A DNA stretch of 63,909 nucleotides, counting the filler, from Hausera hauseri (taxonomy: Eukaryota), in the NCBI GenBank assembly GCA_046269625.1. It is 12 parts of 12 records of this genome, joined end to end, with 100 filler letters (N's around TTAATTAATTAA, not from the genome) between each part and the next. Parts side by side here need not be neighbours in the genome. Positions count along the whole stretch, not along the records: positions 22,715 to 26,881 come from JBJURY010725324.1; 11 more parts are not named here. One strand, given 5' to 3'. Positions 11,565 to 46,419 of the stretch are shown here, piece by piece. The position numbers were made by a program, and so were the translations under genes. Below the pieces are notes generated by a model. That model had not been told where the DNA came from. It searched no databases and saw only the letters and a program-made list of their open reading frames with translations. The first letter of the stretch is position 1. Each line of letters begins with the position of its first letter.

Positions 11565-13513
11565 ATCTTACTTATTCGTATCGTGTATGATTTTCAAAAA
11601 TACAGTAACGAAAAATTTTTTAGAAAACACAAATTTCGAAAAGTGATGTTGATTGAAAAAGAATTAAAACAAAACGTTTTTGTTTTTTGTTACCGTCGTT
11701 TAAAATTGGCATTTACCATTAATCGTAATAATTGGTTTTATGAAACATTATAAATTAGTCGAGTATAAATTATAATTTTATATTTATTCAATATTATAAT
11801 TATGCAATACAATTATTTGCAAATTTTAGACACTTGTGTGGTAATCCCCCAAAATTTGCTCTAATTTACGCAAAACCGAGTAAATTGGTCATTGTATGAT
11901 AAAAACCAGGCAAATTAACAAATTGCTATTTTTTGCATGGAAAATCAGTTGCAAATAGTAGTTTCTTAAAAATCCGAATTTAAATTTTCAAACTGAAAAT
12001 ACAGCGTAAATTTAATTTCATAAGATAATTCTTATTTCAATGTTTGACTTTCATTCATTAACATTCGGCAAAATCAAAGACCTCATAAACAATATTCGAC
12101 TATCAATACATTTTTAGGATGAGTCGAATAATTTTTATTGCTCCCTGAATTTGAACATGCAAAATCAGTAACGAAACATTTCAGACATGGCTATCAAGTT
12201 GAACGGATTGACAAACGTTTCAACATTTTTGATATAAACGTTAAGATAATTATTTTATATTAGAGAAACAAACAATCAAAAAATTACAAAAATTTTTCAT
12301 CATTCAAGGTTCGAATTTCTGACTAAAAATAAATCTAACTTAAAATATGTATCAGCATTTATTTAATGTAATTTATTTACAATCCAAAGAAAAATAAATC
12401 GTTCAATTAAATTGTTAAATTCATTTGTCAAAAATCAAAAATCCACCCAAATAAATTCCAAAATAACTCCACTATTAATTCTGACATTAAACAACGCTTG
12501 TATTCTTATATTTAAATTAATTTTACTTGTCGAAAATATTCCTCATAAATAATTAGTCAATCAAAGCCAAATATTAAAGTTCGTTTTGTTAAGGTGAACA
12601 TAAAATCCCATTTTTAATGTGCCAAATTTCCCATTTTAACCAATTGGTTAAAATAAGTTTGATATTTAATCAAACAAAAATCAATACGTAAATTGTTGAC
12701 GGATTGTTATTTGTAATTTTGATGAACCCAGCCATTATGTCAAATTATTGTTAGTCAACAATATAATTGTGTAATAGTCAAATAATGTTCAGTATTGTCC
12801 AATTTTTTAAAATCAAATCAAATAATTCTGAAAACAACACCATAACATTGTGACATTCTCTAATTTAAATATTGCGCTCCGTTTAAACTCAACAAGGCGT
12901 TTTTTTAAGATTTCGTAGTTCCAGTAATTTTTGTTGTGCTTACTGTTCATTAATTTGTTTAAAATTATAGCGAGTGTGTATTTATGCAATAATAGAACAT
13001 TTGTAAATGTGTGTAATTTTATTATCCAATTATATTCCAATATTGCAAATGAACAAAACCAAATTTTAAAATATAAATTTCGTTTACTGCGAAGCCGTAA
13101 AAAACACTGCAAAAATGACTTAATATTTTCTTACATTTATTTTTTCTAGGTTGATTATTTATACATACACACACATACACACAGTATAATTATATGTACA
13201 CATAAGTGGTATAAAATAGAAATAAAATTTTTATTTAAATTTAATTTGTTTCAAAAATTCTGTTTGAACCTTTACATATAAATCCATCAATATGAAGTAA
13301 TTTTGTGTGTCACCTCATTTACCACTTTTTATATTATTTTAGATACTTTACTCCGAACTTTGATAATTGTGATCTTGTACATTATTCAGTAATTCCAAAT
13401 TATATCCGACGAAACGATGATAAAGTACTATATTCATTATTATTTAATTTTTGTTTGAAACGTCATGTTACGTAATCATTACGCAATAATTAAATAAAGT
13501 TATTTTTGTTTAG

Positions 13514-22714: not shown

Positions 22715-23497
22715 GTCGGTCCAATTCTAATTGAAATTCTTAATGAATGGAGTCGTATTTATTTTCAAAATACGTACGTAAGCACCGATTTTATATTTTT
22801 GGCGTTTAATTGCCTGTTGTCATTGTGTTCGGTTTTGATAAAGCCACATGTCCAAATCATGGATTACGTCAACCGGGCGCATTCCGTTGATTCCACGGTG
22901 TGTCGAATGATTGTATGCATGAATAATATCCGGCAGTACATCCACCCAGCGTATGTTTCCTTGCTTCGTAATGAATTTGTTTAGGTGACCGCGCAATGTT
23001 TGATTAAATCGTTCTACGAGTGCAGCTTTGTATTGAGAAAATACCGAATAGTGGTTTACGCCGAACCGTTTCAAGACCGCTGCAACGTTGGCGGTGTAGA
23101 ATTCCTTACCCAAATTCGTTTGTAAATGCTTTGGCTGTTGTTGTTGTATCAGTGTCTGAACAGCGTCGGCAATCTCTTTACTGGATTTGGATTTCACGGC
23201 AATTGCACATACAAAACGACGAAACACATTAATGCATGTCAGCACGTACCGCTACCCACCGTTGATGCTGGGGTGCGGAATCATTTCTATCAGATTCATT
23301 TGTCATACGTTATTTACACCGGCAGCACGGTATGCACGCGTTGGAAACCGCCTTCTTATCGGTTTGTTTAGGCGGTGTGCTAATCGTTTCCCGAGCCAAC
23401 GTTCAGTCTGTTGCCGAGTCTGTTTCACAGTCTTTGCCAGTTTGTCGACGCCAGCATACCCGACGGGATGACGCGGGTCGAACCACACGTAGCCCAT
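22715..23497 (-). pseudogene. Polinton retroviral-like (rve) integrase
   Basis: WFDPRHPVGYAGV...RRRFP, QTNLGKEF, KAALVERFNQTL, YNHSTH and KYKIGAYVRI motifs. Stops present, with D>N at both catalytic Asp positions. Confidence 0.9.
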
Positions 23498-23638
23498 CGT
23501 TGTAGCCGATGTAATTTTTGTTAGTATTACAACAATTAGAACGAAATGTAAATGAAGGATTCGGTAAACTTGGGCAAAATGATAAAAGCCATGCACTCAT
23601 ATCGCCGAATAATCATATACTAACCGTCATTGTTTATA

Positions 23639-23977
23639 CTATGCTGTTGCAGAACCAATGAGTTCACCCAATAATGACGTGGCAATCGGTAGAATTGCAC
23701 CAATGAATCCGCTATCTTGTTGGTACAAGTCCTCTCGTTTCAGTAGTTTACTACGGGCGTTGGCAATGCCAATGAGTTGTTTTAGATACTTTAGTAAATT
23801 CCGCTTTCCACTACCAATGTCAACGTGACCCACAACGATATTGTACAAAATTTTCATCAAATCGTCTACTACAAATTGCGGGAATGATCGCAGCACGTTT
23901 CGCTTATGTCTCGTAGGTGCCTTGAACAAAGCAATAAAGTACGGCTGACTGCGTTTGAATCGCGTTTTTGGCCGCAT
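23639..23977 (-). CDS. Polinton conserved small basic protein ending in a QxGGF-like motif and a hydrophobic helix (probable virion core/membrane-active protein)
   Basis: ...NIVVGHV...KREDLYQQDSGFIGAILPIATSLLG, located between ATPase and integrase. Confidence 0.7.
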   Translation of the reverse strand: MRPKTRFKRSQPYFIALFKAPTRHKRNVLRSFPQFVVDDLMKILYNIVVGHVDIGSGKRNLLKYLKQLIGIANARSKLLKREDLYQQDSGFIGAILPIATSLLGELIGSATA

Positions 23978-24159
23978 TGATGCTTAGACGTTAATTTGCG
24001 TCTAGTTGCTGCTGCTGCTGCTGTTGTTCGAAGCACATAACTGATTATTCGCTTGACTGTAGCGGTGGTTCGTTTTGATACACGTTTCTTGCCGCCGGAC
24101 AGCCGCTTGATAGGTTTACGTTTAATAATTGTTTTTCGGAAATTATCATTTTATCACAA

Positions 24160-24812
24160 TCATGTCGATTTTCGAATTTGTTTATAGACATGTACACCTT
24201 TCTGATTGAAAATGTCTGTTCGTACACGCATGACATCGGGACACTGTTGTGTAAAGTCTATGAAGAAGTATCCGTGTGGCTCGGTCGTAGCATCATGATA
24301 TGCATCTATCAAGTAGGCTCGGTTGTGAGAAAATGCTTGTCGTGCAACATAATCAATGATAGTCTGATCACGGGGATTTTTGAACAACACCAAAGAGTGT
24401 ACGTTTAAATTTCTTGTTCGATGCTGTCCGCCCTGGTGGAACATGTTTTTGCGTAATGAAAATAACCGTCATACCACGGTGTCGTTCAATCTTCGTGAAC
24501 AGGTTGTTGAAGTCCGATTGTTTAGCAGCTTCCTCAAATAAATCGTCGATGACATTAGCATCACCGTTGCGTAATCTCTCAGACCAGTTCTCATCAAACC
24601 CATCAATTACCGTTATCAAGTTTAATTTACAAAATTCCCGATGTGTCAAATCGGACTCTCAATCATGACCAACACCCTGATGCCAGTAAGTGATTGTACC
24701 GCGGTGAATGAAACATGTTACGGTAGTTCTGCAATAGTTTACACACGAAGTGTGTTTGGCCACTTCCACTGGGGCTTACAATCTGGAAAATTGCATCATT
24801 CTGCAGCTTCAT
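24160..24812 (-). pseudogene. Polinton packaging ATPase (A32/FtsK-like)
   Basis: Degenerate Walker A SPSGSGQT, Walker B VIDDL, VIFITQ, LFKNPRD and ATTEPHGYFFID; frameshifted. Confidence 0.9.
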
Positions 24813-24899
24813 CTAAATAATACAACCTTTCCTCACATTATTTGTTTATAATCGTGTTGCACGCTTATAAATAGATATAGTATAAACACTGTTTCCATA
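24813..24899. promoter_or_regulatory. Probable bidirectional promoter between the ATPase and TBP-like genes
   Basis: 87-bp divergent intergenic with TATAAA on the minus strand at 24845-24850, and TATAAATA (24866-24873) and TATAAA (24881-24886) on the plus strand. Confidence 0.5.
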
Positions 24900-25512
24900 A
24901 TGTTAGCTAATATCAACTATCGCGAACATGTTACCCAGTGTGACATTAACACACTACCTTTTAATCAATGTAAGCCGTGACAGTATGTCCTCAAGTGTCC
25001 ACCGGATTTTACATGCATCATATTTCAATCGGGAGTGTCGTATTATGGGTTGTCGCAAACCATTCACAGATGGTAAACTACGGCCATTCGGAATTGTCAT
25101 TGACCAAATCCAATTAATAACGGTAACGACTCAGTTAGACTACCACCAAACAATCAATCTGTACAAATTAGCAATGGCCATAAAATGTACGTATGAACCC
25201 GAACTGTTTCCTGCACTGAGAATGACATTGTTTTGCCCACTTTGTGTCAATGTGTTTAGCAGTGGAAAAATTGTTGTACTAGGTACTCGGACAGTGGACT
25301 ATGAACCGATTATTAATCAAATTAAAAGCCGCATAAATGATTTAGCAAATCAAAATAATGCACTCTACACAACAACAAACTATAAATACCATTCCTATGA
25401 TCATTCAGACATTACTGTTATGGAAGACGACGATAAAACGATTCTACTCAATGATGGTGGCTGTGAAAATAATGAAAGTTCAGATTGGTCGTTGTTGTTT
25501 GGCTACAAATAG
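24900..25512 (+). pseudogene. TATA-binding-protein-like gene (two TBP half-repeats)
   Basis: MLANINYR...IIFQSGxCRIMG (repeat 1) and INLYKLA...YEPELFPAL...VNVFSSGKIVVLG (repeat 2). One stop and one frameshift in repeat 1; the 3' end is uncertain. Confidence 0.8.
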
Positions 25513-25811
25513 AGAATTCTAATGTCAAATTTCTGGAAACAAAAACAGAACCTGTCCAACAATTAAAAAAACCTAATGGCGATTGTCTGGAGGACGATTA
25601 TAATGTCGACTGTCTGGAAACGAAAGGGAAACTCGTTCAGAAATCAGCAGTAGCAGCAGAAAAACCGACGTTAAAAAAGCAAAATGCAATGATTGGAATA
25701 CGTAAACGAAAATCAAAACCGTCGCGCCAAACAGACATTTTTACCGAAATAAATTTTTCGCAAATACGAAATGCATTTTCTGCAAACGCCCGTACCGATT
25801 TCATTGAATGA
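25485..25811 (+). CDS. Hypothetical Polinton accessory protein with acidic and basic (NLS-like RKRK) stretches
   Basis: ORF in the gene-dense block with no recognised domain; may be frameshifted from neighbouring ORFs. Confidence 0.35.
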   Translation: MVVVVWLQIENSNVKFLETKTEPVQQLKKPNGDCLEDDYNVDCLETKGKLVQKSAVAAEKPTLKKQNAMIGIRKRKSKPSRQTDIFTEINFSQIRNAFSANARTDFIE

Positions 25812-26115
25812 TCCCGTGTATCTATGTGCACCCAAGTACAGCTATCGTGTAAAACGGCTTTCGGGTAAAAATTTGAATAAACTTTTTAATGCTCTGCATC
25901 AACTAAACGTGGATTTAAAGTTGAACGAAACGACCGTGCAACAGCAATCTGTCGTTTTACCGGCTCACAAAACCAAATTGTTTGATTTCATCGGTCGCGA
26001 AATGTCCAATGTACCCGATGATGATTTAAAGTGTCGACTGAATATTGAATTGCAAGGATACAAGGAAAAAGCCGGTATCAAAAGCCCGATTTGGCGTGTA
26101 GCTAACTATCAATAA
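25771..26115 (+). CDS. Conserved Polinton accessory protein (possible OB-fold ssDNA-binding protein)
   Basis: The C-terminal LxGYxExxGIKSPxW motif is shared with 36437-36671. Confidence 0.55.
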   Translation: MHFLQTPVPISLNDPVYLCAPKYSYRVKRLSGKNLNKLFNALHQLNVDLKLNETTVQQQSVVLPAHKTKLFDFIGREMSNVPDDDLKCRLNIELQGYKEKAGIKSPIWRVANYQ

Positions 26116-26347
26116 TTTTTGTTTTACCGTTCTTTCATTAACCCAATCTGATGTGAAGAAGCGGAATTCAGTGTATTGTCACCGGAACAATGGGGATTGT
26201 TTTGTGTCAATGAAGCAAAAACAACGCAAAATGAACGCAAAGAATTTGGCTTTGGTTATATGGATAAAACCACCTGTTCAATGATGTGATGATAATAATA
26301 GTTGTTTTTGTGTTATTAACAAAAAATGATTTTGTACCAGATAAGTA

Positions 26348-26837
26348 ATGACGACAGGATTTATAGATATTGAAGCTGTCCAAGATGATAATGCCCGGTA
26401 CCTGATAAAGGAATTATGCGTTATGGACGTCGGTAACATTTTCGAACCGCTTGTGTACGTATTCAAGCCCGCCGTTATGTGGAATCAGTTGACAGAAAAG
26501 GTGAAAATTACCAATGGATATCTCATACGACGTTGTCATGGACTTTATTGGAACGAAGGCAATTCAACCCTTTGCGTATCATGTATCATGAGACACATTT
26601 GTGATCTTTTTGACATTGAAAGTACAATATTTTACATTAAAGATCAAATTGACGGACAAAAGTTTACACATCCATTCACAGTTTCCCGAGTTGCGAATGA
26701 CGACGTATTTAACAACATCGAACAACTCGCTGGCGATGGTACCTGACAATATTATATGTCCGTATCGTGATCATGGACCACATTGTGCTTACAAAAAATG
26801 TCTACGGCTTTGTATTGACTATATTTCATGCAAATAA
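26348..26837 (+). pseudogene. DEDD-like (RNase H fold) nuclease-like protein with a C-terminal Cys/His cluster
   Basis: FIDIEAV...IKEL...FKP...W...HGLYWNEG...CPYRDHGPHCA; one frameshift near 26660. Confidence 0.6.
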
Positions 26838-27499
26838 ATAAATGTATTTCTCTGTTTCTTTTTTCTTTCTGTAAATAAGGTNNNNNNNNNNNNNNNNNNN
26901 NNNNNNNNNNNNNNNNNNNNNNNNNTTAATTAATTAANNNNNNNNNNNNNNNNNNNNNNNNNNNNNNNNNNNNNNNNNNNNAGGAGGAAAATAAACACAA
27001 ATCACTTGCTGCGGCATATGAGAATCGAACAGTGCCTATTTGTAAATTACCAATATTAACAGACCTAAAGGATCCGTATGGAAAAATGGAGGAATATATA
27101 AAATTACGTAACTTAACAAAACACTCTCAGGAAGAGATACGCCAATCCATTATTACACGAAACACGGAAAACAGCCGTGTAACATTACCTACATCACCCA
27201 AGTTAGGTATACTGCCACCTATATCTTATCACCAAACAAACCGATTAATGAAAGATCAAGTAGACAGAGAACCCTATTTAACAATCTCAGAACCCGTTAG
27301 TACGCAAAACACAACATTACAACGTGTAAGTTGCTACACAGACCTGAGTGAACTCAAAGAGGAAGTGAAGGGAGTGGAAAACAATACTCAATCTTTGGAA
27401 AGTTTAGCGGTTATATTATCAAGCAGCACTACCCGATATTGTTCGGCTAGTTACAGCTTGATGGAACCACATATAGATAATCATAACGATGTATTAATG

Positions 27500-30400
27500 T
27501 TTCTCGAGCTTTTACGGGATAATTGACCTCACACCACAGTTCACTTTGATAGCTTTGACCTAAATGCTATGGTTGACACTGGATCTAACGTTGCATTAAT
27601 AGCAAAACATGCAATTCCAGAAGAATTACAATCTCAAATAAAATTGGCTACTAAAGACTTGCCTGGTACTACTTCGGCCTTCCAGCAATGCAGTAAACCC
27701 TATGGATACTGGAAAGTGAACCATGAATTTGCGGACAGAGAGTCAAAATAACTTTTGATGTAATGATTACCTTGGATCCGCGATGCATTTTGGGTATGAA
27801 TGTGTTGCGCAAATTGGAAGGTGTACACATAAACTTATAATCGGGATAAATTTGTCCAAATAATGAAGATAAACTCCCTAATTACAACAAAACAGACATC
27901 TGGGTAGGACATGTTCAGAAAATACCACCCAATTCTAGAATGGTTACAAACGCCAGAACAGTATTCCCAGACAACAGTGTAATTGAGTTTGTGCCGAAAA
28001 CTCTTCTAAATGGACTTATATTGCCACACTATTGCGTTAATGTAATGGGAAGAACCATCCCTGTAGAAGTTTTAAATCCCACTCAAAGATGTGTCACAAT
28101 ATTCACTAAAATAAAAATTGGACAGGCATTAGAAACTACACGCCAAGAGAAATATGACAAAAATGTCGTGACCATTTCAACAGCGGAATATGATAATGCT
28201 GAAAACATACTTAATGTCGTTCTTACTAAAGTCAAGCAAATTTTATCAGATGAATATCTAAGGAATTTCTTAGACCTCATTTGTCAGTACCTTGATATTT
28301 TTGCAAAAAACGATACGGATATCGGACGAACAGATTTAGATTGTTATTTATGCTCGACCCCACAACCGGAAAAGAAGTAGATCTGTTACGACAACCTGTA
28401 CCAAAATGGTACCCTTCTCCAAAAGCACTCCAAAAGGAAGTTGAGTAATAAATTTAAGCTATGCTCGATAAAAGTATCGTAGAACCTAGGTAATCACCTT
28501 GGCCCTCTGCCATAGTTATGGGCAAGAAAGCTAATACGACTAAACACCGCCTGTGCGTAAATTACGTTACCTTAAACAAGCACTTAATGAATCATGCGTA
28601 CTAAATTCCGCAAATACGGGACGTCATTGATGAACTGAAGGATTGTAAATATTTTACCACATTAAACTTACCAAGTGGGTTTTGACAAATTGTCGTAACT
28701 GAAGGGGATCGATGGAAAACCGCATTTAAAACCCATACAGGAGTTTATCAATTCACACGCATGCCACTTGGCTTAAAAACGGCACCCACTTTCTTCCAAG
28801 AATTTATTCGTCTAGTACTAAAAGGAGTGCGGGGCTTATCGTACATTGACGACATCCTTATTGTGTCCAAAACATGGTCTGCCCATTTAGCGGAAATGAA
28901 GGAATTATTTGACCGAATCAGACTTGCTAAATTAAAATTAAATCCAAAAACATTTGAATGGTGTAAGAAGGAAGTTAGATACCTGAGATTTGTCGTTTGC
29001 AGTAAGGGGATATCAACAAGCCCTGAGTTAGTAAATAAAATACTGGAATACCCCCTCCAACCAATGTGGGTAAAATGAAACCATGGTTAAGATTGGGAGG
29101 ATTTTATGCTACCTTCATTCCCTACTTTGCAGAAATTAATCAGCCTCAATATAGGTTATTGCGGAAAGACCAAAAATGGAAATGGACCGAAGAGAACCAG
29201 AACGCATTCGATGAAATTAAAAAACGAATGGTGTCAGCACCAATATTAAGGTACCCAGATTTTTCACTACCATTCATTTTAAAAACTGACGCTAGCATTA
29301 AAGTCATTAGTTTTGTATTACCTCAACAAAGTCCAGAAGAAACAACCGAATATGTAATCGCCTACGGCGGACGTAGCTTGAATAATGCAGAGCGGAAATA
29401 CTCAACTACTGAATTTGAACTATTAGCTATCCGTGATGGATTGAGACATTACGAATATTATGTCTACGGTCATAAGGTTATAATATTTACTGACCACAAG
29501 GCGCTGTTGTCTTTGCGCTCAGACAACAGACATGTATCAAATCGACTCTAAAGATGGAAGTTGGAGCTTTTGAATTATGACTTTGAGTATCGATATCGTC
29601 CTAGCAAAGAAAACACAGATGCCGATGCTCTTTCGAGAATGCCATACAAAAGAATAGTAGCAGCAGCTTATAATTCGTTAGATAACGAGAGTGACAAACA
29701 TTTAAATGAGAAAATCATTAACGATATGTAACAAGAACAACGCAAAATCCAAGTATGAAATATCGAGACCTTACAAAACCTAGATCCCTTTATTGTTCAA
29801 ATCAAACAATTAATTAATAGACAATTAGTTGACTCGGTATCGAATCACATTCAAATCTTTTATGAAAAGTACCGAGTAAAATTAGAAATCGAAAATGACA
29901 TTTTACGACTGAAAGTCGGAGAACAAAAACTGGTCATGGTGCCGGTATCGGCTATCAACGCCGTCATGCTACAAGAACATGATTCACACTTAGCTGGCCA
30001 TCCGTTTTTAAATAAGACTCTAAAGCGTATTACCGCTAAATATTATTGGCCTCAAATGAATAAACAAATTGAAGGATGGGTACGTTCATGCAAAATGTGC
30101 GCTACAAGGAAAGATAGAGTACTTCGTATCAAACCGTTCTTAGGAAGCTTGCCTGAAGCTTGTAAGCCAATGGAAGTGTGTGCAATAGACATCTCTGGGC
30201 CCTTCCCAACATCGGACTTGGGATATAAATACAAACTGTCGCTTGTTGACTACTTCTCTCGCCACGTTGTACTAGTACCATTAAAAAACATGACTAGTGG
30301 TACAGTTGCTGAAACCTTTTTCTATAAAATTATTGCCGTACTGGGCACCCCGAAACAGTCGTTAACTGATCGTGCACCTTATTTCATTAGCGAGTTCTTT

Positions 30401-31000
30401 GAAAAATTATCAAAAATATTCCAATGCAAATATTTATTACCAACATCATACCATCCTCAATGTAATGGTATGATCGAAAGGATAAATCGTACCATTCAAG
30501 GTATTCTTTCTACAAAGGTAGCACAAGATCAAAAAGATTGGCACAATCATCTGAAAACTACGGCTTTTGCAATCAATACTACTCTTACCAAAAGCGCCAG
30601 TCATTCTCCTTTTGAATTAATGTTTGAACGAGTGCCTTTGCTGCCATTAGATACTGAATTACTACCATCCTCCTTGCTAGCTACTGATCATATGGATGAA
30701 CAATACCAGAATTTGCTTAAACGTCTTGAATATGCTCAACGCGAAACAAAGGAATTTGAAAAGAACTACAGATCTAGATATAAAAACACTTTAACAAGAA
30801 AGCACGACTGCATGCTTACTAAATTGCAGATTACATAATGGTCTACTACCCCGTGACGAAAGGCAAATCGTTAAAATTAACACGCACAGGCCAAGGACCG
30901 TACAAAGTCGTCGATGTACGCCCACAAACACTTTTTATTCAGAAAGAGCCCGACAAATACGAGGTTGTGTCAATTCAACAAGTAACCCGAGCGCCTACCT
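27500..31000 (+). pseudogene. Gypsy pol (protease, RT, RNase H, integrase)
   Basis: VDTGS, RMPLGLKTAP, YIDDILI, TDAS, YSTTEFELLAI, FTDHKAL, ADALSR, HDSHLAGH/CKMC, DISGP, YHPQCNGMIER and GPY motifs. Confidence 0.93.
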
Positions 31001-31129
31001 CATACAACGATTTCATGCACGAAACGGAGCTAGACATACCCAAAACGGAAAAGCCCAAAATAGCGGCAATGCTCAAAATTAAACCAATGAGTACCTCAGA
31101 GAATTACTCCGTTCACTTCATTTTTAGTA

Positions 31130-32540
31130 AATACCCTGGAACGTTTATCCTCATTTTTCTCGTTCTCCTCATACCTATTACAATAGCTGATACCAGCCTA
31201 GATACTACAACCACACCGCACACTGAATTAATTGAATGCNNNNNNNNNNACAATTATCAGTATAGATACATTTAAACCCAGTATTTGCTTTCGGACTTAC
31301 CTACCTGTAATGCGACACCTTACAGTTGATTTTGTCCTTTTGTCGCAGCATAACATCTCCTCTATTTGTACAATCCTTGAAGTGCATAATAAAACCTGCT
31401 GCTCCGTAAATTATGTTCAAACTTACACGTACCATGTATTATTGAAGATAAACAATACCAGTACTGTTCTTTGGGAGTGAAATATTATTCTGCACGTTCC
31501 CACTTACCGGGAGATGAATTTATTGGAAACTTTGATGTATTTTCACGCGACTCTTTTATCGCTCGATTCCTAGAATATAATATTAAAATCTGTTATATCG
31601 ACTTCACAAGACAACCTCCTTGCATGAATTTCCGCATCACATGTCTACTATCTTATGAGTTCGAAATCAGCATATGGCTCGACCCCATCTCTACACCCTT
31701 AATACAACCACATTATTGTTATCTTAAGCGAAATGATACTCGCTCATGTTGTACACTCTATCCATACATCTGGTGCAGAATCCGTTTAGATGCATACCAA
31801 ACACGAGGAAATAGACTATTCATTAGAGCGCATTCTCACCGTATTCTTATTCTTTTTTCAGTTAAACGCAACATACCCATTCCGGCCTTTGCTAAGCAAC
31901 ACATAACCTCACCACAATCTGTAAAAAAACTGATAACGCCAAAACTATGGACTACACCTACTATCAAGGAAAGGGGAGATCGAGATCAAGATCAGCTCAA
32001 ACTCAAATCACAAGTTCAATTCAAACCACAAAACCAGTTCAAAATACAAAATCAGCGGCCATATACATTAAAAAGGAAAACACATAAGCATGTATTCTAT
32101 GGGAAATGGATGAAAGAATTTCCCATCATATTCAAATTAACGCCCTACAAATACCGTATTCAGGTAATATTGCAAAATACGATTAACGAACGGAATCTCA
32201 TGATTACTTGTACGGGCTCACATGATAAAGCGAGCATCATACATGAAGCACATAAACGAAATTTTTGTGGAAAAACCAACGCCAGGTATCAATTATTTGG
32301 TGAGGATAGAGACCACGGATAACTCTAAAATTTAACCATAAAAACACTACCAGCAATAGATCAATATCTCCACATAAGATATAATAATGACGATGAAAAA
32401 TGGAAATCAACTACAGCTTGTCGAGGACTACGGAAACATATATCTTACAATATTGGTGGATATTCATATTGATAAAAGGTGTTGGTATTGTCCTTATAAT
32501 GCTTGTTGCACTGGGTAAAAAACCGAAGTGCGGGAATAGA
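31130..32540 (+). pseudogene. Env-position type I membrane protein with two C-x9-CC modules, an FN3-like module and a TM helix
   Basis: Hydrophobic FILIFLVLLIPITIA; CTILEVHNKTCC; CYLKRNDTRSCC; TPGINYLVRIET (shifted frame near 32280); TM YWWIFILIKGVGIVLIMLVALGKK. Confidence 0.65.
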
Positions 32541-32679
32541 TTACTTAAGGACTCTCACTATTCTATTATACAAGGAGGTNNNNNNNNNNNNNNNNNNNNN
32601 NNNNNNNNNNNNNNNNNNNNNNNTTAATTAATTAANNNNNNNNNNNNNNNNNNNNNNNNNNNNNNNNNNNNNNNNNNNN

Positions 32680-35600
32680 CAGAAACAGTACCCAGCAAGA
32701 GCAGCAGCAGGAACAGCATCAACAAGAAGAACAGGAGGCCAATATTCCCAACATTAGAGTCAATTACGACCTGAACAGATCGTACGTGGACATGAAGGTG
32801 AACATGACGGTAAAAACAGCAACACAATTGAAGGATGTACCTGCTCGTGTGCGTAACCGGCTGGAAATAGAGGTGACCCAATTCCAACAACACCACCACC
32901 ACTGCAAAGTGCAATATTATGCACTTGCAGAATTTGAAATTTTGGAAGGTGACAGGAAAGAATGGTACCTGTCACATCCAGCCGTACCGTATTCCGACGA
33001 TTTTATTGCCGACGTAGGCGAAAAGCTCGATGAGAAAATCGGCAACTACACGGAAAAGGGTAGTGGATGGCGAATTATACGAATTGTCACTTTCGTCTTT
33101 GTTGTAACGAAGTCGAGTGACATATTATATTTATCCGGGCGATCATTCATACCGACACCTGCAGCTGTGAAGCAGTCTCTGGCGGTAGTGAATGTAAAAA
33201 ATACTAACGACGGATACTGTTTTCTTTACAGTATTCTGGCGATATTGAAATACGACAAAGTGGACAGACATAGTGCATCTCGTCCAAAACAGTATCAGAA
33301 ATATTTTTCCGAATTGGATTTCGATGAGAGCTGGATGCCGATGAAACTGAAATCCATACCGACATTTGAACGGCGTAATCCGACACTGACAATCAACGTG
33401 TTCCGGTACAACACAGTCGTAGAAATACCAGCGGATGAAGAAATTTACAAAAACCCTCATGTAGATATAATCTATCAAAGTCGGAACCCAAATGGTCACT
33501 CAGTAGTAAATTTTGTGCTACTGGAGCAAGCAGATAAATTTCACTGTGGCAGTAACCAATTTGGACAGATTACTTAACATGGTTCACCATAAGTTTGTCC
33601 AAGAGCGTATACAATGTAAATGGTGTCCTGTATGTCTGCATGAATTCAGGTCGGAAATATCACGGGAGAAACATGTGACTCTGCAGACGAAATTCATCGG
33701 GAACCACAATGTATGTCATGACCGTCAAAAAGGAACTCAGGTTCACAGATAGATCAAAAACAGACAGTCCATCATATGTAGTATATGCCGATATTGAGGC
33801 AATTCTACCACCGCACAACGTGTATGATTAAAAACACGTTCCAATCGCCGTTGGTATGTTGACTGTCACAATAAAAGCGGTCGGTCAGCCGCAGTATTAC
33901 GCCTTTCAAGGCTGGACATGTGTGCGTGATTTTCTGCAGCGTTTGGAAACGATAGAAGAAATGGAAATCGCACCGTGGTATCGCAATAACAGCATAAAAC
34001 CCCTGATTTGGACAGATGAAGATGAACGCCTGACGTTTGCAGCCACCGATGAATGTTACCTGTGCCACCACAAAATATTACCGGAACGGCTCGTACTGGA
34101 TCACGACCATTTCACCGGTCGATACTTGGGGGAAGCATGCAACTCATGAAATTTGGCAAGACTTGTGCGGCCATTCCTGCCGGTGATATTTCATAAATTC
34201 AGGGGTTATGACTGTCACCATATTCTGAAATGGGCCATAAACGGATTTCCGCACTGAGAGCTACCCATAATCCCAACAATGATGGAGAAGTACCTGTCCT
34301 TATCGGCACGCATAAACCGGTTTCAGGTATGGTTTCTTGACTCATTACAGTTCCTCAATGAGTCCTAGCAAAGCTCGTAAATGCCTTGTCTGATGTGCCG
34401 CTAACACTGACGCAGTTCCCCACAAATATTGCACGCAGCAAAGGTATATTCCTGTATGACTTTGCCGTGTCATATGAGCGACTTCGGACAACAGAGAAAT
34501 TACCGCCGCGATGGACAGGTATCACAGAAGATGAATATCAGAGAGCACAGGAATCTTGGACAGAACTCGATTGTAGAAACATGTTGGACTACGTGCTTCA
34601 GTATCTAAATCTCGATGTGTACCTATTAGCCGATGTGTTTCGGACATTTCGGGCTAAAGCGTTGGAGGAAGATAGGTTAAAACCGCTCAACTTTTACTCA
34701 ATACCGGAAATGAGTTGGGCATTGGCACTAATGTCACTGGATTGGGACATTGAGCTGCTACAAGACTCAGAAATGTACCGACTTTTTGACGTTGGCATTC
34801 GTAGCGGCATGATATTTGTCAACAAGCATCACGTAACCAGTGATGACGATGATACATCGTCAATATTGTACATCGATATTAATAACATGTTCTGCTGGGC
34901 GCTTTTGCAACCCTTGTCGTACGGTTCATTTGAATGGATAATGGACGAACAAGAACTGGATACATTGCTGGACAGTCTGCCAGCAGCAAACATGACTAGA
35001 AGCAGCTCAGTCGGCTACCTAATGGAAGTTGATCTCGTGGTACCGGATGAGCTGCATGACTTTCTGGATGAACGGCCGGTCGCACCAATTAGCCAATGTC
35101 CACACGGCAGCTCAAAAGTAAAGAAACTGCTCATGACACATAAAGCCAAATTGAATTACGTGGTTCATTGGCGTCTGCTGCAGTTTTACATGCAGCTTTG
35201 TGTACGCGTCACACAGCTGCATCGTGCAATCCGCTTTAATCATGCGCCGATATTTAAGGCGTACATTAATGGAAATTCCGGGAAATGAGCTGCAGCTTGT
35301 ACAAAATTCAAAAAGGACTATTACAAGCTCAAAAACAAATCACTATATGGGAAAGCAGTGAAAAATGTGAAGAAGCTATTCAATGTTCTCCTGTGCAACA
35401 ACGAAAAACGACTAGTTACGTACACCAGCAAGGCTCAGTTTAGACGGTCAATGCAAATTGCCGATGGATTGGTCGTCGTGCTTCTAAACCGGGAAGAGGT
35501 CGTACTAGACCGGCCAAGCTACATCGGACAAGTGGTGTTGGACCTGAGCAAGTTGCGAATATACGAGCTCCAATATCGCGACTTGGAACGTTACCGGCAA

Positions 35601-36125
35601 ATGTTCGGCGGCAGCGGCGGCTGTGAGATCAGTATTGTTGCCGGTGACACAGACAGCTTCTTTCTTGAGCTGAAAAACATCAATCGAGACCAGTTGCTCC
35701 AATAAATAATGTCAGATGGACTACTGGACACGTCCAACTACCCATTGGACCATCCACTGTACAGCAGCACGATAACAAACAAAATCGGCTGCTTCGAGGA
35801 CGAAAGTGAAGGCCGGGTTCAATACAGCGAATGGATATTTTTGCGCCCAAAGTGTTACAGTCTTCTGACAGACTGTAGGCCGAAAATGCGGGCAAAAGAC
35901 ATCAAGCTGAAACAGACGGAAAGAAATCACAGTGATTATCGCCGTGTCTATGATGGACAAGAAGACGGAGAAGAAAGAAGGGCTGTTGTATCTCAAACGC
36001 CCGTACGATCGATTGAGCATTAGCTGTATACCATCACAAATAAAAATGTTGTTTTTTCATGCAACGATGACAAGCGAAAGTGAGTGGGGCGAAATAAGAG
36101 TTGGGCGTACGGACATTGGCGTTGA
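32680..36125 (+). pseudogene. Polinton group-2 protein-primed DNA polymerase B with an endonuclease VII/HNH-like insertion
   Basis: GSGW, YADIEA, CYLC...DHDHFTGRYLGEACN, GYDCH, FLDSLQF, DVYLLADVF, YIDINN, KxxNxSLYGK, GDTDS, LRPKCYS, DDKR and AYGHW motifs; many frameshifts. Confidence 0.95.
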
Positions 36126-36436
36126 GATAACACAAGGTCAGTAACAAAACAGTTCAGTCAGTACAAAGATGCAATTCAAACCAGCCAGATCATTGTGACA
36201 TTTGTGATCTTTGTTTGTTTTACATTCATCTGCTGTACATGAGATAAATAACGTATTTGTACACTAGTTTTTGTCTTCTGTTTTATAACAGGGAAATGGG
36301 ACTTAAGTTGGGTTATCGAAAAAAAATCTCATATTACTCAAAATCTCAAACACTTTTCACAATACAACACAACACAACAGAAAAACTCAAATAAATTTTA
36401 TTACAAATCATAAACTAAAAACACCAAACACTAAAG

Positions 36437-36671
36437 TCAATTCATTAAAGTAAACTTCCCCAACTTCCACATTGGCGATTTAATACCACACAGTTCCTCA
36501 TATCCTTTCAGCTTCATTGCCAGGTGTCCTTTTACCCCTTCCGTTGGCAAAACTGCTGTTTGTCCATTTTCACGCACAATTTTCGCCATGTTGCCTTTAA
36601 GGAAAAGCGAGGATGTGTCCCGAATATCATTGGACAACATTAAATCATTGTCCACTTTCTTCATCGTTTCC
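36437..36671 (-). CDS. Accessory protein C-terminal part (homologue of 25771-26115), convergent with pPolB
   Basis: LAMKLKGYEELCGIKSPMWKL; truncated by the contig end. Confidence 0.55.
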
Positions 36672-37024
36672 NNNNNNNNNNNNNNNNNNNNNNNNNNNNN
36701 NNNNNNNNNNNNNNNTTAATTAATTAANNNNNNNNNNNNNNNNNNNNNNNNNNNNNNNNNNNNNNNNNNNNAGACAGGAAGACCTATAAATAAAGGTAAT
36801 GTTTTCATAGAAATTTTAAAAATGTTTTTCTGTTTACATGTTTATTGAATGTTGTGTTTATTGATGTCTTTGTTTGCATGTTTATTTCATTTTTAATGTA
36901 AAGAATGTATCATTTGAGATAGTTACACAATGTACGTTGTCGCTTGTGAAATTTCCTTTAAGATACACTCTACACATCACATCAAAAGGACCCTTTTTTA
37001 GCCTCTTAAAGTATCATGGACGTT

Positions 37025-37760
37025 AGTAGTAGTATAGTAAGAGGTAAACTAGTATCATTTTGAAGGCTGCGCAGAGGTGGGGCCAGGTGGACGTCAGGCG
37101 CAGGCACAGGGGCAGAGTTATGTGACGTCATAGGGAGCAGGCGGCACCCAGTGCCACATGCATGTGCTCGGAAATTAGAGTCAAAGGGAGAAGTTGTAGC
37201 GTGTATCTGGAAATTAAAGATGAGGGAAGGAGTCAGGCAGAGCAGAGAGGTGCCGCATGCATGTACCCAGAGTTGTGTTTAGAGTCAAAGGGGTGGAGTC
37301 AGGATGGTGTCTGAAGGGGGAGCAAGGGGAGGAGCTAGGCTGGCACAGCCTGGTACAAGGGGGCAGAGTTAGTCGTCACAGGCTGGTGCAAGTGTTGCGG
37401 GGTGTCACATGCGTGTACCCAGAAATTGAAGATGAGGGGAGGAGTCTGGCAGTGCATAGGGGCGGAGTCAGGTGACATCAGGTGTAGGCGTCAGGGGCGG
37501 ATTCAGTCAGTACAGGCGGTGTGGGGTCCTGCATGCATGTACCTGGAAATTAAAGACAAGGGGAAGAGTCAGGTGGAGCAGAGATGGCGTCTGAAAGGGG
37601 AGTAAGAGGACAATGTAGAGGCAGAGGCTAGTCAAGATGGTGGCTGAAGGCGGTGGTGGGATGACTTTTATCTAAGTTTTTAAGGCACAAGATGGCACCT
37701 GAAGGGTCCGTGTGGGCAAAGTCAGGCAGAGACCAGTCAAGATTGTGGCTGAAGGGTACT
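37025..37760 (+). repeat. Putative Polinton terminal inverted repeat / subterminal degenerate repeats
   Basis: AGTAGTAGTATAGT, then recurring GAAATTAAAGATGAGGG, GCATGCATGTACC, GGGGCxGAGT and GATGGxxxCTGAAGG units. The partner TIR is not in the window. Confidence 0.6.
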
Positions 37761-38371
37761 CGAGTAGATAAGGGGAGCACATTTTGTATATACAGATAAG
37801 ATATGATAGTAATTGCCTTGTAGATAAGCGCATCGTTGTAGGGTGTTGGTAACTGTTCAATTGATATACTGTGCGCTGACTGATCAAATGATGAGACAAA
37901 GTTCTGTGAATAACCGTTTGGTGGCGGGCTTTGCGCCGACTCGTCATACACGGGTGAAAAGGTCTGTATAGGAGCCCTTTGGGTGGCGATGGACTTGTCA
38001 TAAAATGGTAAAAAGTTCTGTAATGGTTCAGTGTTAATAAACGACATAAGGTTCGACGGAGGCTCGGTTTGTGTGGTAGCTGTGGCAGTTAACGGGTATC
38101 GTCCCAGCACGTCTTTTGGAACCGTTGCTATATAGTCGATGGCGGAAAAAATCTCTCTTTGCAAGGCGACGAGTTGTTCAAATTCTTCGTATGTGAGCGA
38201 GATTCCATTTTTAGTCGAGAACTTTTTGTAGCTTTCACCAAAGTATCTTCTAATATGCACCAACACTCTGTTTCGATACGAAGAAACTGTAACTAGCTTG
38301 GCCAGGCCTATCTGTCTTGCCAACGCAGCATCGCCGGTCATGTAGACGTTGTTATCAAACCACATAAACAT
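37628..38371 (-). CDS. PC4/Sub1 (p15) domain protein with a low-complexity tail
   Basis: LVTVSSYRNRVLVHIRRYF...TKNGISLTYEEFEQL matches the PC4 pattern VxVxxFxGxxxIDIRxY...KGISLxxxQWxxL. TATA near 38410. Confidence 0.8.
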   Translation of the reverse strand: MFMWFDNNVYMTGDAALARQIGLAKLVTVSSYRNRVLVHIRRYFGESYKKFSTKNGISLTYEEFEQLVALQREIFSAIDYIATVPKDVLGRYPLTATATTQTEPPSNLMSFINTEPLQNFLPFYDKSIATQRAPIQTFSPVYDESAQSPPPNGYSQNFVSSFDQSAHSISIEQLPTPYNDALIYKAITIISYLYIQNVLPLSTRVPFSHNLDWSLPDFAHTDPSGAILCLKNLDKSHPTTAFSHHLD

Positions 38372-38429
38372 TTTGAAAACAGAAAGCCCCTCTGGGTGTG
38401 CGACTCACTTATATACCATTATAACCGGT

Positions 38430-38880
38430 TTACACCGGATGTGTGACATCATAGATATTTATACAAGTAGTTTCTCTGCAGCCAAGGTAAGACGAAGCGC
38501 CAAACGAGCCTATCGTTGACGTGTTGTCTCGTTGTCGAAAAGGACATGAGGACGCGTCGCATGGAACATCCTCTGGCTTTGATGAGGATGAAATAAATGA
38601 CGTAGAGTCCTCAAGCATTACTAAAACATCTTGTAAGGGTCGCTCGTTGTAGATGAATTCTCTGTTAGAGTTACGTTTAATGAAAGTGTCAATGTCAGCA
38701 TGCAGTGGAGGAAGTCTAAAGGAATCAAAATAGTGAAATGTGCCAATGCCATCATAGTACAAAGATACCCAATGCGTATCGGGTTGGTCGCTGGGATCCG
38801 TATTTATGACAAAGGCTGCCAGCTCTGTCGGGTCGATTCGTTTGGGTAACTTGTCACGGTACACGACTTTGACAGGATGT
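38430..38880 (-). pseudogene. Adenain-like (peptidase C5) maturation cysteine protease
   Basis: INTDPSDQPDTHWV, YFDSF and NERPLQ motifs. After a frameshift it reads SNA*GLYVIYF, with the catalytic Cys codon now TGA. Confidence 0.88.
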
Positions 38881-40182
38881 CAGCGTTTGAAAATGTCAGA
38901 TTTTAAAATTGTATCTGTCGAGTGTCCATCTTTTTTAAGCCACAAAGTCCAGTAACATTTGTCTGCTTTTGGAAATTTCAATGATAGAGGTCCGTTTTTC
39001 GCGAGTTCAAACTGGTCCCCATCCAGACGGCTGGGACTGAGATCGAACGCATAGAGGGCATAACCGTCTTTGAAACTTTTGTAGTCGACATCGCAGCCAG
39101 CGTCCTTACCGATCAGACCCATGGCTAGATTAGTTCCAAAAAGGGATCGAGCGTAATGGTCGCGCTTGAAATCTACCTTTAACGGCTCCCCCGTGGCCGT
39201 CCTCCCATCGATGGTGACGTTCAAATATGTCAAGCCGAAATGTTGAAAGTTGAATGGATTATTTCTGTAGGTGCCATTAAAAGCCAAGGAATTTACTATC
39301 GCAAGGAATTTACTATCGCGATCATGGTGCGCTTCGGCGTTTGACTGAGGAAAAGATTGTCTTGAATGTGCAACAACATTCCTCTGGGTATGGACAATGT
39401 CTTTATCATGACTCGTTTGATGGGGTATTTTGCGTTCGCTGTAGTCAAGGTCTTTTCGTGGACCAGAGAAATGTCCGGATTTAATTTGGCTTTCCTGACC
39501 ACCAGGAAGGCGCATGTTATAATTGATTTATAACAGAGCGCGAGATCGTCGGCTATAAGGTTGGAGGAGTCTTTAGAAGGGGTGAGTTTGATCTTTACGT
39601 CCACTCCATTCAGCATGGGCAGTCTTAGGTTAAAATGTCGCAGTGTAAGTTTCCCATCATATCCACTTCTTGACTACCGGCAGCCAACTCACGACGAGTT
39701 TTCAGTCCGACGTTAGAATCGGCTTTAGCTTCATCGAAAAATTTTGGCGTGTCGTTGTAGTATAGGGCTGCCGTCAGGTGACCCCTTTTGGCTTCCTGAA
39801 AGTAATTTAAAACGGCTTCGACGTAAGACCTGTATGGGTAAGTGTTTTTTCTAGGCGTGATTCACGTGTCGTTCAAGGCGATGTCCACTTGAGAAAATAA
39901 TCTGGTAATTGTTGACCGGGGCCACGTCTGCACTGTCCGGTAAATTATCACCGTTGGCCAAAACGACTTTGGCCCGCACATGCAGAAAGGTATTAAACAA
40001 ATCTAGATACTCTTCGCCACTTCCGGATATTTCAAATTCTATGGGCGCCCCGGGCGCGAGAGAAGCAAGAGGGTAAATGTCTACAAACTGACCTTCCTCT
40101 AGCGCTGTTTGTGTCAGAGGAACACTAAACAAATCCAAACTGGAATGGGGGCATTCGTACGAGCTGGGGTTATCAAAGCCAT
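38880..40182 (-). pseudogene. Polinton major capsid protein (double jelly-roll)
   Basis: ECxxSxLDLFSVPxTQ, PIEFEISGSGEEYLDL, LNGVDVKIKL, AKYPIKRV, NPFNFQHF and GYALYAFDLSP motifs. A 17-bp tandem duplication at 39285-39318 causes one frameshift. Confidence 0.92.
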
Positions 40183-40186
40183 GTCT

Positions 40187-40661: not shown

Positions 40662-40754
40662 CTTTTTTTTTGCAAAAAGTAACATCACCACCGAAGAACC
40701 GTTCATGAATCGGATCTTTTGTCCCAGTGTAATATTACAGCCCTGAAAAAGGTT
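40662..40754 (-). pseudogene. Probable C-terminus of the minor capsid protein (penton)
   Basis: LGQKIRFMNGSSVVMLLF resembles the GxxIxFxxGxxxVxLHF ending, in the expected position. Confidence 0.45.
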
Positions 40755-45117: not shown

Positions 45118-45134
45118 TCCTGCTAGGGTCGCCA
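45118..45134 (-). promoter_or_regulatory. tRNA primer-binding site
   Basis: TGGCGACCCTAGCAGGA, 4 nt after the LTR end; complementary to a tRNA 3' end (...UCCUGCUAGGGUCGCCA). Confidence 0.85.
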
Positions 45135-45138
45135 AATA

Positions 45139-46395: not shown

Positions 46396-46419
46396 AATCT
46401 TCCCTTCTATTTTATATTT

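What the first reader, a model, noticed from the sequence alone, without database searches (positions are those of the whole stretch)
24900..25360. Polinton carries its own TATA-binding-protein-like gene
Seen: an intronless gene divergent from the Polinton packaging ATPase on the same contig, with both TBP half-repeats (IIFQSGxCRIMG; YEPELFPAL...VFSSGKIVVLG), no N-terminal tail and strong divergence from cellular TBP. Known: TBP homologues occur in large DNA viruses but are not part of the Polinton core set (PolB, INT, ATPase, protease, capsids). Inference: this lineage may supply its own promoter-recognition factor to redirect host Pol II to viral promoters, or act as a TBP decoy. This copy has one stop and one frameshift.
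Basis: partly seen in the sequence, partly recalled or inferred. Interest (0 to 1): 0.85.

Follow-up and report, generated by a model that had tools for sequence, protein, structure and literature searches.

The report
Polinton mini-TBP with private promoter box
A decayed copy of a virus-like Polinton transposon carries a broken copy of a shortened TATA-binding-protein gene that is intact and conserved in many related elements, where it likely reads a variant TATA box in front of the packaging gene (and the inferred capsid genes) and so would switch them on with the host's RNA polymerase II.

Summary
Confirmed. The 4.2-kb contig (22715-26881) is a decayed Polinton fragment. Its gene at 24900-~25390 has the TBP fold (Pfam E 3.9e-11; model of a close intact relative, Z 12.3 to human TBP) and has one stop and one frameshift. 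It belongs to a Polinton-linked clade of ~150-aa TBPs: 75 intact relatives, dN/dS 0.10-0.24, and 19 of 23 loci over 4 kb carry Polinton core genes. The family keeps three of four DNA-kinking phenylalanines and the TFIIB-binding glutamates. Its first repeat lacks helices H1 and H2, and the DNA face carries conserved polar substitutions. Related elements show two promoter classes. TBP itself has a host-type TATA and/or initiator. The ATPase (22 of 23, 1.0 expected) and inferred virion genes have YATAAAC, mostly without an initiator. Three such boxes lie 37-38 nt before start codons in this contig. Best reading (0.65): a late-promoter factor that feeds host TFIIB and Pol II. Binding, expression and a TBP-less Polinton control are untested. 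In print I found only a figure label (Starrett 2021). This scan found the same thing before on other DNA (30 notes, at least 4 genomes).

The parts
22715..26881 (.). Whole contig: internal fragment of a decayed Polinton/adintovirus-like element (no terminal repeats, polymerase or capsid gene on this piece)
   Evidence: contig bounds; gene matches; 38,484 contigs of run X1 lay on it
24900..25390 (+). Pseudogenised mini-TBP gene (two TBP repeats, first one trimmed); end approximate, taken from where the closest intact relative stops aligning
   Evidence: fold of intact relative
24978..24980 (+). Premature stop, nearly private to this copy
   Evidence: about 99% of summed contig depth in X1, and all depth in X2, X5 and X8, differ at this codon
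25030..25036 (+). Frameshift
   Evidence: 51-69% of summed depth in four runs shows an indel here and further contigs end loose here
24866..24873 (+). Canonical TATA box TATAAATA of the TBP gene, with an initiator-like CCATA 31 nt on and the ATG 34 nt on (host-type, inferred early promoter)
   Evidence: class pattern
24881..24888 (+). Variant box TATAAACA only 19 nt before the TBP start codon; unusual for the family (1 of 51 relatives); possible feedback site or chance
24843..24850 (-). Variant box TATAAACA 38 nt before the ATPase start
24178..24812 (-). Packaging ATPase (A32/FtsK-like), broken by stops and frameshifts
   Evidence: tblastn to relatives E 4e-73; relative L013 hits Pfam Pox_A32 E 1.8e-6
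24179..24186 (-). Variant box TATAAACA 37 nt before the start of the basic ORF
23642..24149 (-). Conserved basic small ORF (cluster c4), broken
23631..23638 (-). Variant box TATAAACA 38 nt before a short ORF at 23600 that precedes the integrase
22715..23518 (-). Retroviral-type integrase, broken and cut by the contig end
   Evidence: Pfam rve E 3.1e-5; tblastn E 6e-99
25381..25388 (+). Canonical TATAAATA 39 nt before an ATG at 25420 (inferred start of the next, acidic ORF)
25420..26115 (+). Acidic ORF plus a protein that likely has an SSB-type fold (cluster c3); likely one spliced gene in relatives
26345..26830 (+). Conserved ORF with a DEDD-exonuclease-like motif (label recalled, no Pfam hit), broken; a one-mismatch box TATTAACA starts at 26314

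Best explanation
This is a dead copy of a Polinton-encoded, trimmed TATA-binding protein whose intact relatives likely act as the element's late-gene switch. Shown: TBP fold, Polinton linkage, purifying selection, two promoter classes. Inferred step 1: the TBP gene and its neighbours are transcribed first by host TFIID, since they carry a host-type TATA box and/or an initiator 30-32 nt downstream of it. Inferred step 2: the protein binds the variant box YATAAAC[A/G] with a re-lined, polar DNA face. Inferred step 3: it hands the promoter to host TFIIB and Pol II through the retained E-x-E stirrup, as no TFIIB gene was found in the elements. Inferred step 4: having lost helices H1 and H2 of the first repeat, it would escape TFIIA, TAF1, Mot1/BTAF1 and Brf1, which fits the scarcity of initiators at the variant-box genes. 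The outcome would be an early-to-late cascade that turns on packaging, integrase-block and virion genes.
For: Fold: a model of the closest intact relative has pLDDT 94.3 and matches human TBP at Z 12.3, rmsd 2.9, over 146 residues spanning both repeats; the first non-TBP row is Z 6.7. Family: 75 of 88 candidates pass. 111 of the top 150 clusters at 50% identity carry both family hallmarks. Linkage: 36 of 80 loci, and 19 of 23 at 4 kb or more, hold an ATPase, integrase, protease, PolB or inferred capsid gene. Selection: 11 non-overlapping pairs give dN/dS 0.10-0.24. Residues, n=75: the sites of yeast F116, F190 and F207 and both stirrup glutamates are 75 of 75. Polar or altered residues are fixed on the DNA face at V71 (Asn 71), I103 or A101 (Gln 70), V122 (Arg 75), I194 (Arg 70), V203 (Cys 72) and L205 (Asn 75). 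I194, V203 and L205 are the three sites of the altered-specificity mutant TBPm3 (PMC1636458). KSHV ORF24 also has a polar face, including an N-x-N at the same strand (10.1101/2025.08.25.672222). Promoters, 80 nt upstream, de-duplicated: YATAAAC in ATPase 22 of 23 (1.0 expected), c4 13 of 16 (0.5), inferred penton 8 of 13 (0.4), inferred major capsid 8 of 10 (0.3), PLA2 10 of 13 (0.3), but TBP 1 of 51 (1.2). A canonical TATA precedes TBP in 27 of 51 (9.3 expected). An initiator-like TCA[TC][TA] is found in 48 of 64 TBP/c9/c15 starts against 23 of 105 variant-box-class starts, and TATA-to-initiator spacing is 30-32 nt in 25 of 32. In 23 loci, 57 of 120 TATAAAC sites lie 25-60 nt before a start codon, against 0-16% for 12 control heptamers. 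C at position 7 is disfavoured in selections with TBPm3 and TFIIIB (PMC1636458).
Against: No binding, expression or start-site data exist. No Polinton known to lack the TBP gene could be obtained, so the box is not shown to depend on it (blank). Host TBP is not blind to the box: TATAAACG kept 27% activity in Arabidopsis protoplasts (PMC10005294 Table 4), and a C(-25) variant was crystallised with wild-type TBP (1qn3, listed). The stirrup is not invariant family-wide: E-x-E-x-F is in 83 of 111 distant clusters, and L072, L079 and L081 lack the first glutamate. Long-form relatives keep H1 and H2 yet share the box, so helix loss is not needed for it. One of four kinking phenylalanines (yeast F99) is gone. 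The exonuclease-like genes are mixed (10 of 25 have an initiator), and several genes (c11 0 of 9, c19 1 of 6, integrase 5 of 13) lack a box of their own within 80 nt. In this copy a variant box does precede the TBP gene.
Confidence: 0.65

Rival explanations
1. The variant box is simply a weak TATA box read by host TBP, and the element's TBP-fold protein does another DNA job, such as repressing, bending DNA for replication or packaging, or binding single-stranded DNA.
For: Host TBP retains partial activity on TATAAACG. One kinking Phe is lost. A Giardia TBP lacking key phenylalanines prefers single-stranded DNA (PMC12209930, listing and start of abstract only). The gene often neighbours a likely SSB.
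Against: The box is fixed at C7 across deeply split subclades and avoids the TBP gene itself. The TFIIB stirrup is kept in 75 of 75 close relatives, which a non-transcriptional job would not need. The two-class promoter layout suggests two different readers.
Confidence: 0.17
2. It is a decoy or host shut-off factor that ties up host TFIIB or sits on host TATA boxes.
For: The TFIIB-binding surface is kept while the regulator surface is lost (surfaces as defined in PMC7221094). The gene looks early-expressed.
Against: A decoy does not explain the invariant new polar residues on the DNA face or the element-wide variant box. TFIIB binds the TBP-TATA complex through both protein and DNA contacts (PMC10005294), so a free decoy would grip it poorly (inference).
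Confidence: 0.1
3. It is the recognition subunit of a larger element-encoded complex, as in the herpesvirus vPIC, and does not use host TFIIB directly.
For: Herpesvirus and large-DNA-virus TBPs work with viral partners (PMC7221094; ORF24 paper). Several conserved small ORFs in the elements have no known function. The first glutamate is lost in one subclade.
Against: No TFIIB or other transcription-factor Pfam hit, apart from zinc fingers and KilA-N, in 89 element-locus ORFs scanned. No single neighbour is shared by all subclades. The nearest neighbour folds like an SSB.
Confidence: 0.06
4. It is a processed host TBP pseudogene that landed in a Polinton by chance.
For: It is intronless and broken in this copy.
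Against: It has 70% identity to intact relatives, while the model of that relative aligns to solved TBPs at only 20-26%. The family is one clade (SH-aLRT 99) under purifying selection with recurring Polinton context. The breaks are not shared by most related contigs.
Confidence: 0.02

Closest known systems
Cellular TBP (Pfam PF00352; yeast 1ytb, human 1cdw)
   Same: Two-repeat saddle, three of four kinking Phe, Pro after the third Phe, C-terminal E-x-E stirrup.
   Different: About 150 aa against about 180. First repeat lacks H1, H2 and the F99 site. Polar DNA face. 20-26% identity. Mobile-element gene.
Beta/gammaherpesvirus TBP mimic (KSHV ORF24, EBV BcRF1, HCMV UL87) with TATT late promoters
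   Same: A viral TBP fold with a polar DNA face, paired with a variant TATA box before late genes. N-x-N on the first strand. Weak fold hits to BcRF1/UL87-type models, E about 0.01.
   Different: ORF24 is a large multidomain protein in a six-member complex, binds Pol II itself, lacks the TFIIB glutamates and keeps four Phe. This one is a bare 150-aa domain that keeps the glutamates. The box differs at position 7, not 4. Common ancestry was not shown.
TBPs of Nucleocytoviricota (e.g. ASFV B263R-type, mimivirus, phycodnavirus)
   Same: Viral TBP fold (17 BFVD matches at E up to 0.001, 7-18% identity); loss of the eukaryotic N-lobe regulator signature (PMC7221094).
   Different: By PMC7221094 those TBPs have diverged at the TFIIB glutamates and often come with their own TFIIB; many also come with their own RNA polymerase (recalled). 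No such genes were found here.
Polintons/Mavericks/adintoviruses (Starrett et al. 2021, PMC8502044)
   Same: ATPase, rve integrase, adenain-like protease, PolB and PLA2-like genes in the related loci. A gene 'similar to TATA binding proteins' is labelled in Fig. 5.
   Different: The paper gives only that legend label. I could not see which genome carries it. Its text does not describe a family, a structure or a promoter motif (term search, sections 3.2 and 3.4).
Yeast altered-specificity mutant TBPm3 (I194F, V203T, L205V)
   Same: The same three positions are changed and conserved in this family (Arg, Cys, Asn).
   Different: An engineered mutant that reads TGTA; here the residues differ, and the box varies at positions 1 (T/C) and 7 (C).

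Membership tests
TBP fold family (PF00352) | Profile match above the curated cut-off | tested here: met
   43.1 bits against 22.9, second repeat only
TBP fold family (PF00352) | Two-repeat saddle | tested here: met
   intact relative: Z 12.3, rmsd 2.9, 146 aligned, model 1-148 against human 164-337
Canonical eukaryotic TBP | Four intercalating phenylalanines | tested here: not met
   three are 75 of 75; the F99 site is variable in either alignment register
Canonical eukaryotic TBP | Helix H2 of the N-terminal lobe with its basic regulator patch | tested here: not met
   no helix of 4 or more residues between residues 12-27 or 51-64 of the model; G49-to-Q71 spacing median 20 against 33
Canonical eukaryotic TBP | Acidic C-terminal stirrup for TFIIB | tested here: met
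   both Glu 75 of 75 in close relatives and present in this copy; 83 of 111 in distant clusters
Canonical eukaryotic TBP | Nests among cellular TBP or paralogues in a tree | tested here: not met
   45 family rows form one side of a branch, SH-aLRT 99, long stem; only one plant TBP and one insect TBP-family protein were sampled, no TRF2
Viral late-promoter TBP mimic (ORF24-like function) | Variant TATA box before structural and packaging genes | tested here: met
   capsid labels inferred
Viral late-promoter TBP mimic (ORF24-like function) | Sequence-specific binding and requirement for late transcription | not testable with these tools
   no protein-DNA assay or expression data
Herpesvirus ORF24/UL87/BcRF1 family | Pol II-binding N-terminal domain and extra C-terminal domain | tested here: not met
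   listed relatives are 144-213 aa single domains; longer fused forms were not searched
Polinton/adintovirus element | rve integrase plus packaging ATPase | tested here: met
   both on the contig
Polinton/adintovirus element | Protein-primed PolB and protease | tested here: inconclusive
   not on this 4.2-kb contig; present beside relatives (PolB-cluster 8 and protease 7 of 80 loci)
Polinton/adintovirus element | Major and minor capsid genes | tested here: inconclusive
   assigned in relatives by size, order and recalled motifs; no Pfam, PHROG or PDB-sequence hit
Polinton/adintovirus element | Terminal inverted repeats and target-site duplication | not testable with these tools
   internal fragment; no whole genome held

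The most novel reading that the evidence does not exclude
One 150-residue protein is the entire late-transcription switch of these Polintons. It is an orthogonal TBP that reads YATAAAC, ignores TFIID's TAFs, TFIIA and Mot1, and plugs straight into host TFIIB and Pol II. That would be the smallest viral late-gene system known and direct evidence that these 'transposons' run their own early-to-late virion programme without a helper virus. In this lineage the extra box over the TBP gene's own start region would add negative feedback.
Probability: 0.4. Interest if true: 0.87.

Novelty: new variant of a known kind. Interest (0 to 1): 0.7.

Why it matters
How Polintons time their gene expression, and whether integrated copies can make virions unaided, is open; no virion programme has been shown for animal Polintons (own knowledge). 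A built-in promoter factor with a matching box makes this directly testable with a small protein and a 7-base motif. The box also marks likely virion genes among the unannotated ORFs. For transcription biology, it is a natural minimal TBP that keeps the TFIIB surface and drops the regulator surface, a combination not described for viral TBPs in PMC7221094. This particular copy is a fossil; the value lies in the family.

Tried and rejected
Whole genome: none held, so other copies could only be seen as short contigs in public runs. Expression: no RNA holder listed; this says nothing either way. TBP-less Polinton control: ATPase and capsid scans of viral contigs and capsid or TBP searches of phage records were blank. 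The second Polinton fragment in the window (36772-40754) has no YATAAAC on its gene strand, but it is one decayed piece of unknown TBP status, so I did not count it. The TBP scan of viral contigs gave one ordinary two-repeat TBP (L001), and prokaryote genomes gave one MAG contig (L082, not examined). Conservation of the three boxes at 24843-24888 in related contigs (no difference at 25% or more, against four differing flank positions) is not significant: about one in five by hand. My first register, which set the invariant Pro25 at the F99 site, was dropped, because spacing and the alignment favour position 23; the Phe is absent either way. An initiator 32 nt after the TATA at 25381 was expected but the match lies at 22 nt. 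A TFIIB or other partner gene: no such Pfam hit in 89 ORFs, namely 29 and 60 of 152 candidates; the ORFs left out were mostly antisense overlaps or further cluster members. No complex prediction was run: no host TFIIB was in hand and the contact needs DNA. A PDB-wide fold search of c3 and an atlas look-up of c3 did not complete. The atlas only restated the TBP label for P0002. Patikoglou 1999 was not held.

Full report
OBSERVATION. The window is 12 small contigs joined by spacers. The finding lies on contig 22715-26881. A reading frame starts at 24900, meets a stop at 24978-24980 and shifts frame near 25033. Read through with X at both breaks, it scores 43.1 bits on Pfam TBP (E 3.9e-11, second repeat only) and E 3.1e-13 on the best solved TBP. 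The packaging ATPase starts 88 nt away on the other strand, followed by a basic ORF and an rve integrase. An acidic ORF, an SSB-like ORF and an exonuclease-like ORF follow the TBP gene. The ATPase, basic ORF, integrase and exonuclease-like gene are broken as well, so this is a decayed element copy. In four public runs nearly all summed contig depth differs at the stop codon (99% in X1) and 51-69% shows an indel at the frameshift. Run X1 holds 38,484 contigs that lay on the piece. These depths are not copy numbers.

THE FAMILY. The search gave 75 relatives among 88 candidates, 144-213 aa, the best at 70% identity. A profile found 67 clusters at E up to 1e-30. Of the 150 listed, 111 carry both hallmarks (R-x-M/L-G and N-x-F-x-x-G) and 2 look canonical. 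Of 142 metagenome matches the tool kept 80. Of these, 36 hold at least one Polinton core gene, and so do 19 of the 23 loci of 4 kb or more. Pfam confirms the ATPase, integrase, protease, PolB and PLA2-like labels on representatives. The capsid labels rest on size, order and recalled motifs, with no database hit. Among 54 intact coding sequences, 34 pairs had usable divergence, and 11 non-overlapping pairs gave dN/dS 0.10-0.24. In a quick tree of 62 rows the 45 family rows form one side of a branch (SH-aLRT 99) on a long stem. The donor is unresolved, cellular sampling was thin and no TRF2 was included.

ANATOMY. AlphaFold on the closest intact relative gave pLDDT 94.3. The Foldseek rows shown at E up to 0.001 are all TBPs (44 matches). 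VIA gave Z 12.3, rmsd 2.9 over 146 residues covering both repeats. The first repeat has its strands but no H1 or H2. Anchor spacings are 37 against 47 and 20 against 33 residues, while the second repeat is normal. Yeast numbers below come from alignment to a plant TBP plus a fixed offset. Kept, of 75: F116, F190, F207, both stirrup glutamates (75 each) and P191 (74). Lost: F99, where the register is uncertain by two residues but no Phe is conserved in either. Changed and fixed on the DNA face: V71 to Asn (71), I103 or A101 to Gln (70), V122 to Arg (75), T124 to Met (75), N159 to Ser (72), I194 to Arg (70), V203 to Cys (72), L205 to Asn (75). That these positions face DNA is from established TBP structure (recalled), except I194, V203 and L205, which PMC1636458 names as the TBPm3 specificity sites near base pair 2. 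The same paper says the C-terminal repeat reads the 5' half of the box and the N-terminal repeat the 3' half. PMC7221094 places TFIIB binding on the two glutamates and TFIIA, TAF1, Brf1/2 and Mot1 binding on a basic N-lobe patch that includes H2. It reports that known viral TBPs diverge at both. This family keeps the first and, in the short form, deletes the second.

PROMOTERS. Earlier notes of this scan pointed me to a shared box; I then tested it on my own loci. In 80 nt upstream, after removing near-copies, YATAAAC occurs before the ATPase in 22 of 23 (1.0 expected from shuffles), c4 13 of 16, inferred penton 8 of 13, inferred major capsid 8 of 10, exonuclease-like 18 of 25, PLA2 10 of 13, LRR 5 of 5, protease 4 of 5 and integrase 5 of 13, and never reversed in these classes. 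It is rare before TBP (1 of 51), c9 (0 of 6), c15 (1 of 7), c11 (0 of 9) and c19 (1 of 6). Position 1 is T in 63 and C in 26 of 94 sites, and position 8 is A in 77. In the 23 longer loci, 47% of TATAAAC and 38% of CATAAAC sites lie 25-60 nt before a start codon, against 0-16% for 12 control heptamers. TBP, c9 and c15 instead have canonical TATA boxes (27 of 51, 4 of 6, 6 of 7) and an initiator-like TCA[TC][TA] (48 of 64; 6 in a control stretch), 30-32 nt apart in 25 of 32 cases. The variant-box classes have that initiator in 23 of 105. The initiator consensus is recalled, and start codons are predicted. In the window, the three minus-strand boxes lie 38, 37 and 38 nt before their start codons, and the TBP gene has TATAAATA with an initiator-like site 31 nt on. 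It also has a variant box 19 nt before its ATG, too close to drive a full-length message if spacing is as usual; this may be feedback or chance.

MECHANISM. Best reading (0.65): host TFIID expresses the small TBP early. The protein then binds YATAAAC and brings host TFIIB and Pol II to the packaging, integrase-block and virion genes, outside TAF, TFIIA and Mot1 control. The obligatory C at position 7 lies under the rebuilt first repeat, and the T/C freedom at position 1 lies under the TBPm3 sites. Shown: fold, linkage, selection, two promoter classes. Inferred: binding, timing, TFIIB use, escape from regulators. Against: host TBP keeps 27% activity on TATAAACG (PMC10005294); long forms with H1 and H2 share the box; the first glutamate is lost in some distant members; and no TBP-less Polinton could be tested. 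Rivals: host TBP reads the box and the protein has another DNA job (0.17), decoy (0.10), subunit of a larger element complex (0.06), host retrocopy (0.02).

KNOWN SYSTEMS. It works like the herpesvirus TBP mimic ORF24 with its TATT late promoters, including a polar DNA face. It is not a member of that family: there are no extra domains, and the TFIIB glutamates that ORF24 lacks are kept. It is in the TBP fold family but fails the canonical tests of four phenylalanines and helix H2.

NOVELTY. Seven library searches pairing Polinton, Maverick or the motif with TBP, TATA, TFIID or promoter terms and term look-ups in two Polinton papers (no TBP or TATA) found one relevant mention, the Fig. 5 legend of Starrett 2021. 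The library lacks most subscription journals. What I saw of each paper: PMC8502044, abstract, term passages and sections 3.2 and 3.4, no figures or supplements, which may say more; its preprint 10.1101/697771, passages; PMC1636458, PMC10005294 and PMC7221094, passages; 10.1101/2025.08.25.672222, abstract, two results sections and passages; 10.64898/2026.06.19.733378 and 10.1101/2023.08.22.554363, term look-up only; PMC12209930, listing and start of abstract. This scan has 30 earlier notes of the same kind in at least 4 genomes; they are not independent support. Added here beyond the lines I saw of them: the initiator split between promoter classes, the TBPm3 and ORF24 parallels, and the long-to-short gradient.

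VERDICT. A real, conserved Polinton gene family with a matching promoter signal; a new variant of the viral TBP-mimic theme. This copy is a pseudogene. Interest 0.7.

Noticed in passing
window 36772-40754 (minus strand): A second, different decayed Polinton fragment: inferred major capsid, protease (Peptidase_C5 E 0.011) and a PC4-type coactivator/ssDNA-binding gene (Pfam E 1.4e-10) behind a canonical TATATAA. It has no YATAAAC on the gene strand.
   Followed up: partly
window 23600-23525 (minus); L013, L017, L023, L033, L035 just before the integrase: A short ORF ending in Cys-Cys; relatives start Met-Gly. It could be a lipid-modified virion or membrane peptide (inference). In this contig it follows a variant box by 38 nt.
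   Followed up: no
L006, L007, L012, L013, L016, L018, L027 (c9-c3 junction); window 25420-26115: The acidic ORF and the SSB-like ORF are separated by a short AT-rich GT...AG stretch that looks like a spliceosomal intron, which would fit nuclear Pol II transcription. c3 folds confidently (pLDDT 91.8); its best matches are uncharacterised giant-virus proteins, and the few named ones are phage DNA- or ssDNA-binding proteins.
   Followed up: partly
L054-L081: Long-form relatives (about 160-180 aa) keep helices H1 and H2, and a subclade (L072, L077-L079, L081) keeps Val at the V71 site and in part loses the first stirrup Glu. The short form of this window is a nested clade (31 rows, SH-aLRT 96), so trimming looks secondary.
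   Followed up: partly
window 8961-11567 (minus): An 868-aa ORF without introns that reads like a DEAD-box helicase with an RS-rich N-terminus (Prp5/DDX46-like, recalled), on another contig.
   Followed up: no
window 26982-32579, 32680-36671, 40855-55174: Several LTR-retrotransposon fragments (RT, RNase H, integrase and gag-like motifs by eye). The 40855-50734 piece has extra ORFs, including a RING-like one and possible envelope-like pieces.
   Followed up: no
whole window: The window is 12 unrelated small contigs joined by N44-TTAATTAATTAA-N44 spacers, and other pieces of the same record set are phages, so the source may be a mixed sample; the host is not identified.
   Followed up: partly
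L024:225-719, L035:1710-2168, L060:13315-13893, L045:2303-3109: Accessory genes beside relatives: a ubiquitin-conjugating enzyme, RING fingers and a leucine-rich-repeat protein; the LRR gene also sits behind the variant box (5 of 5).
   Followed up: no
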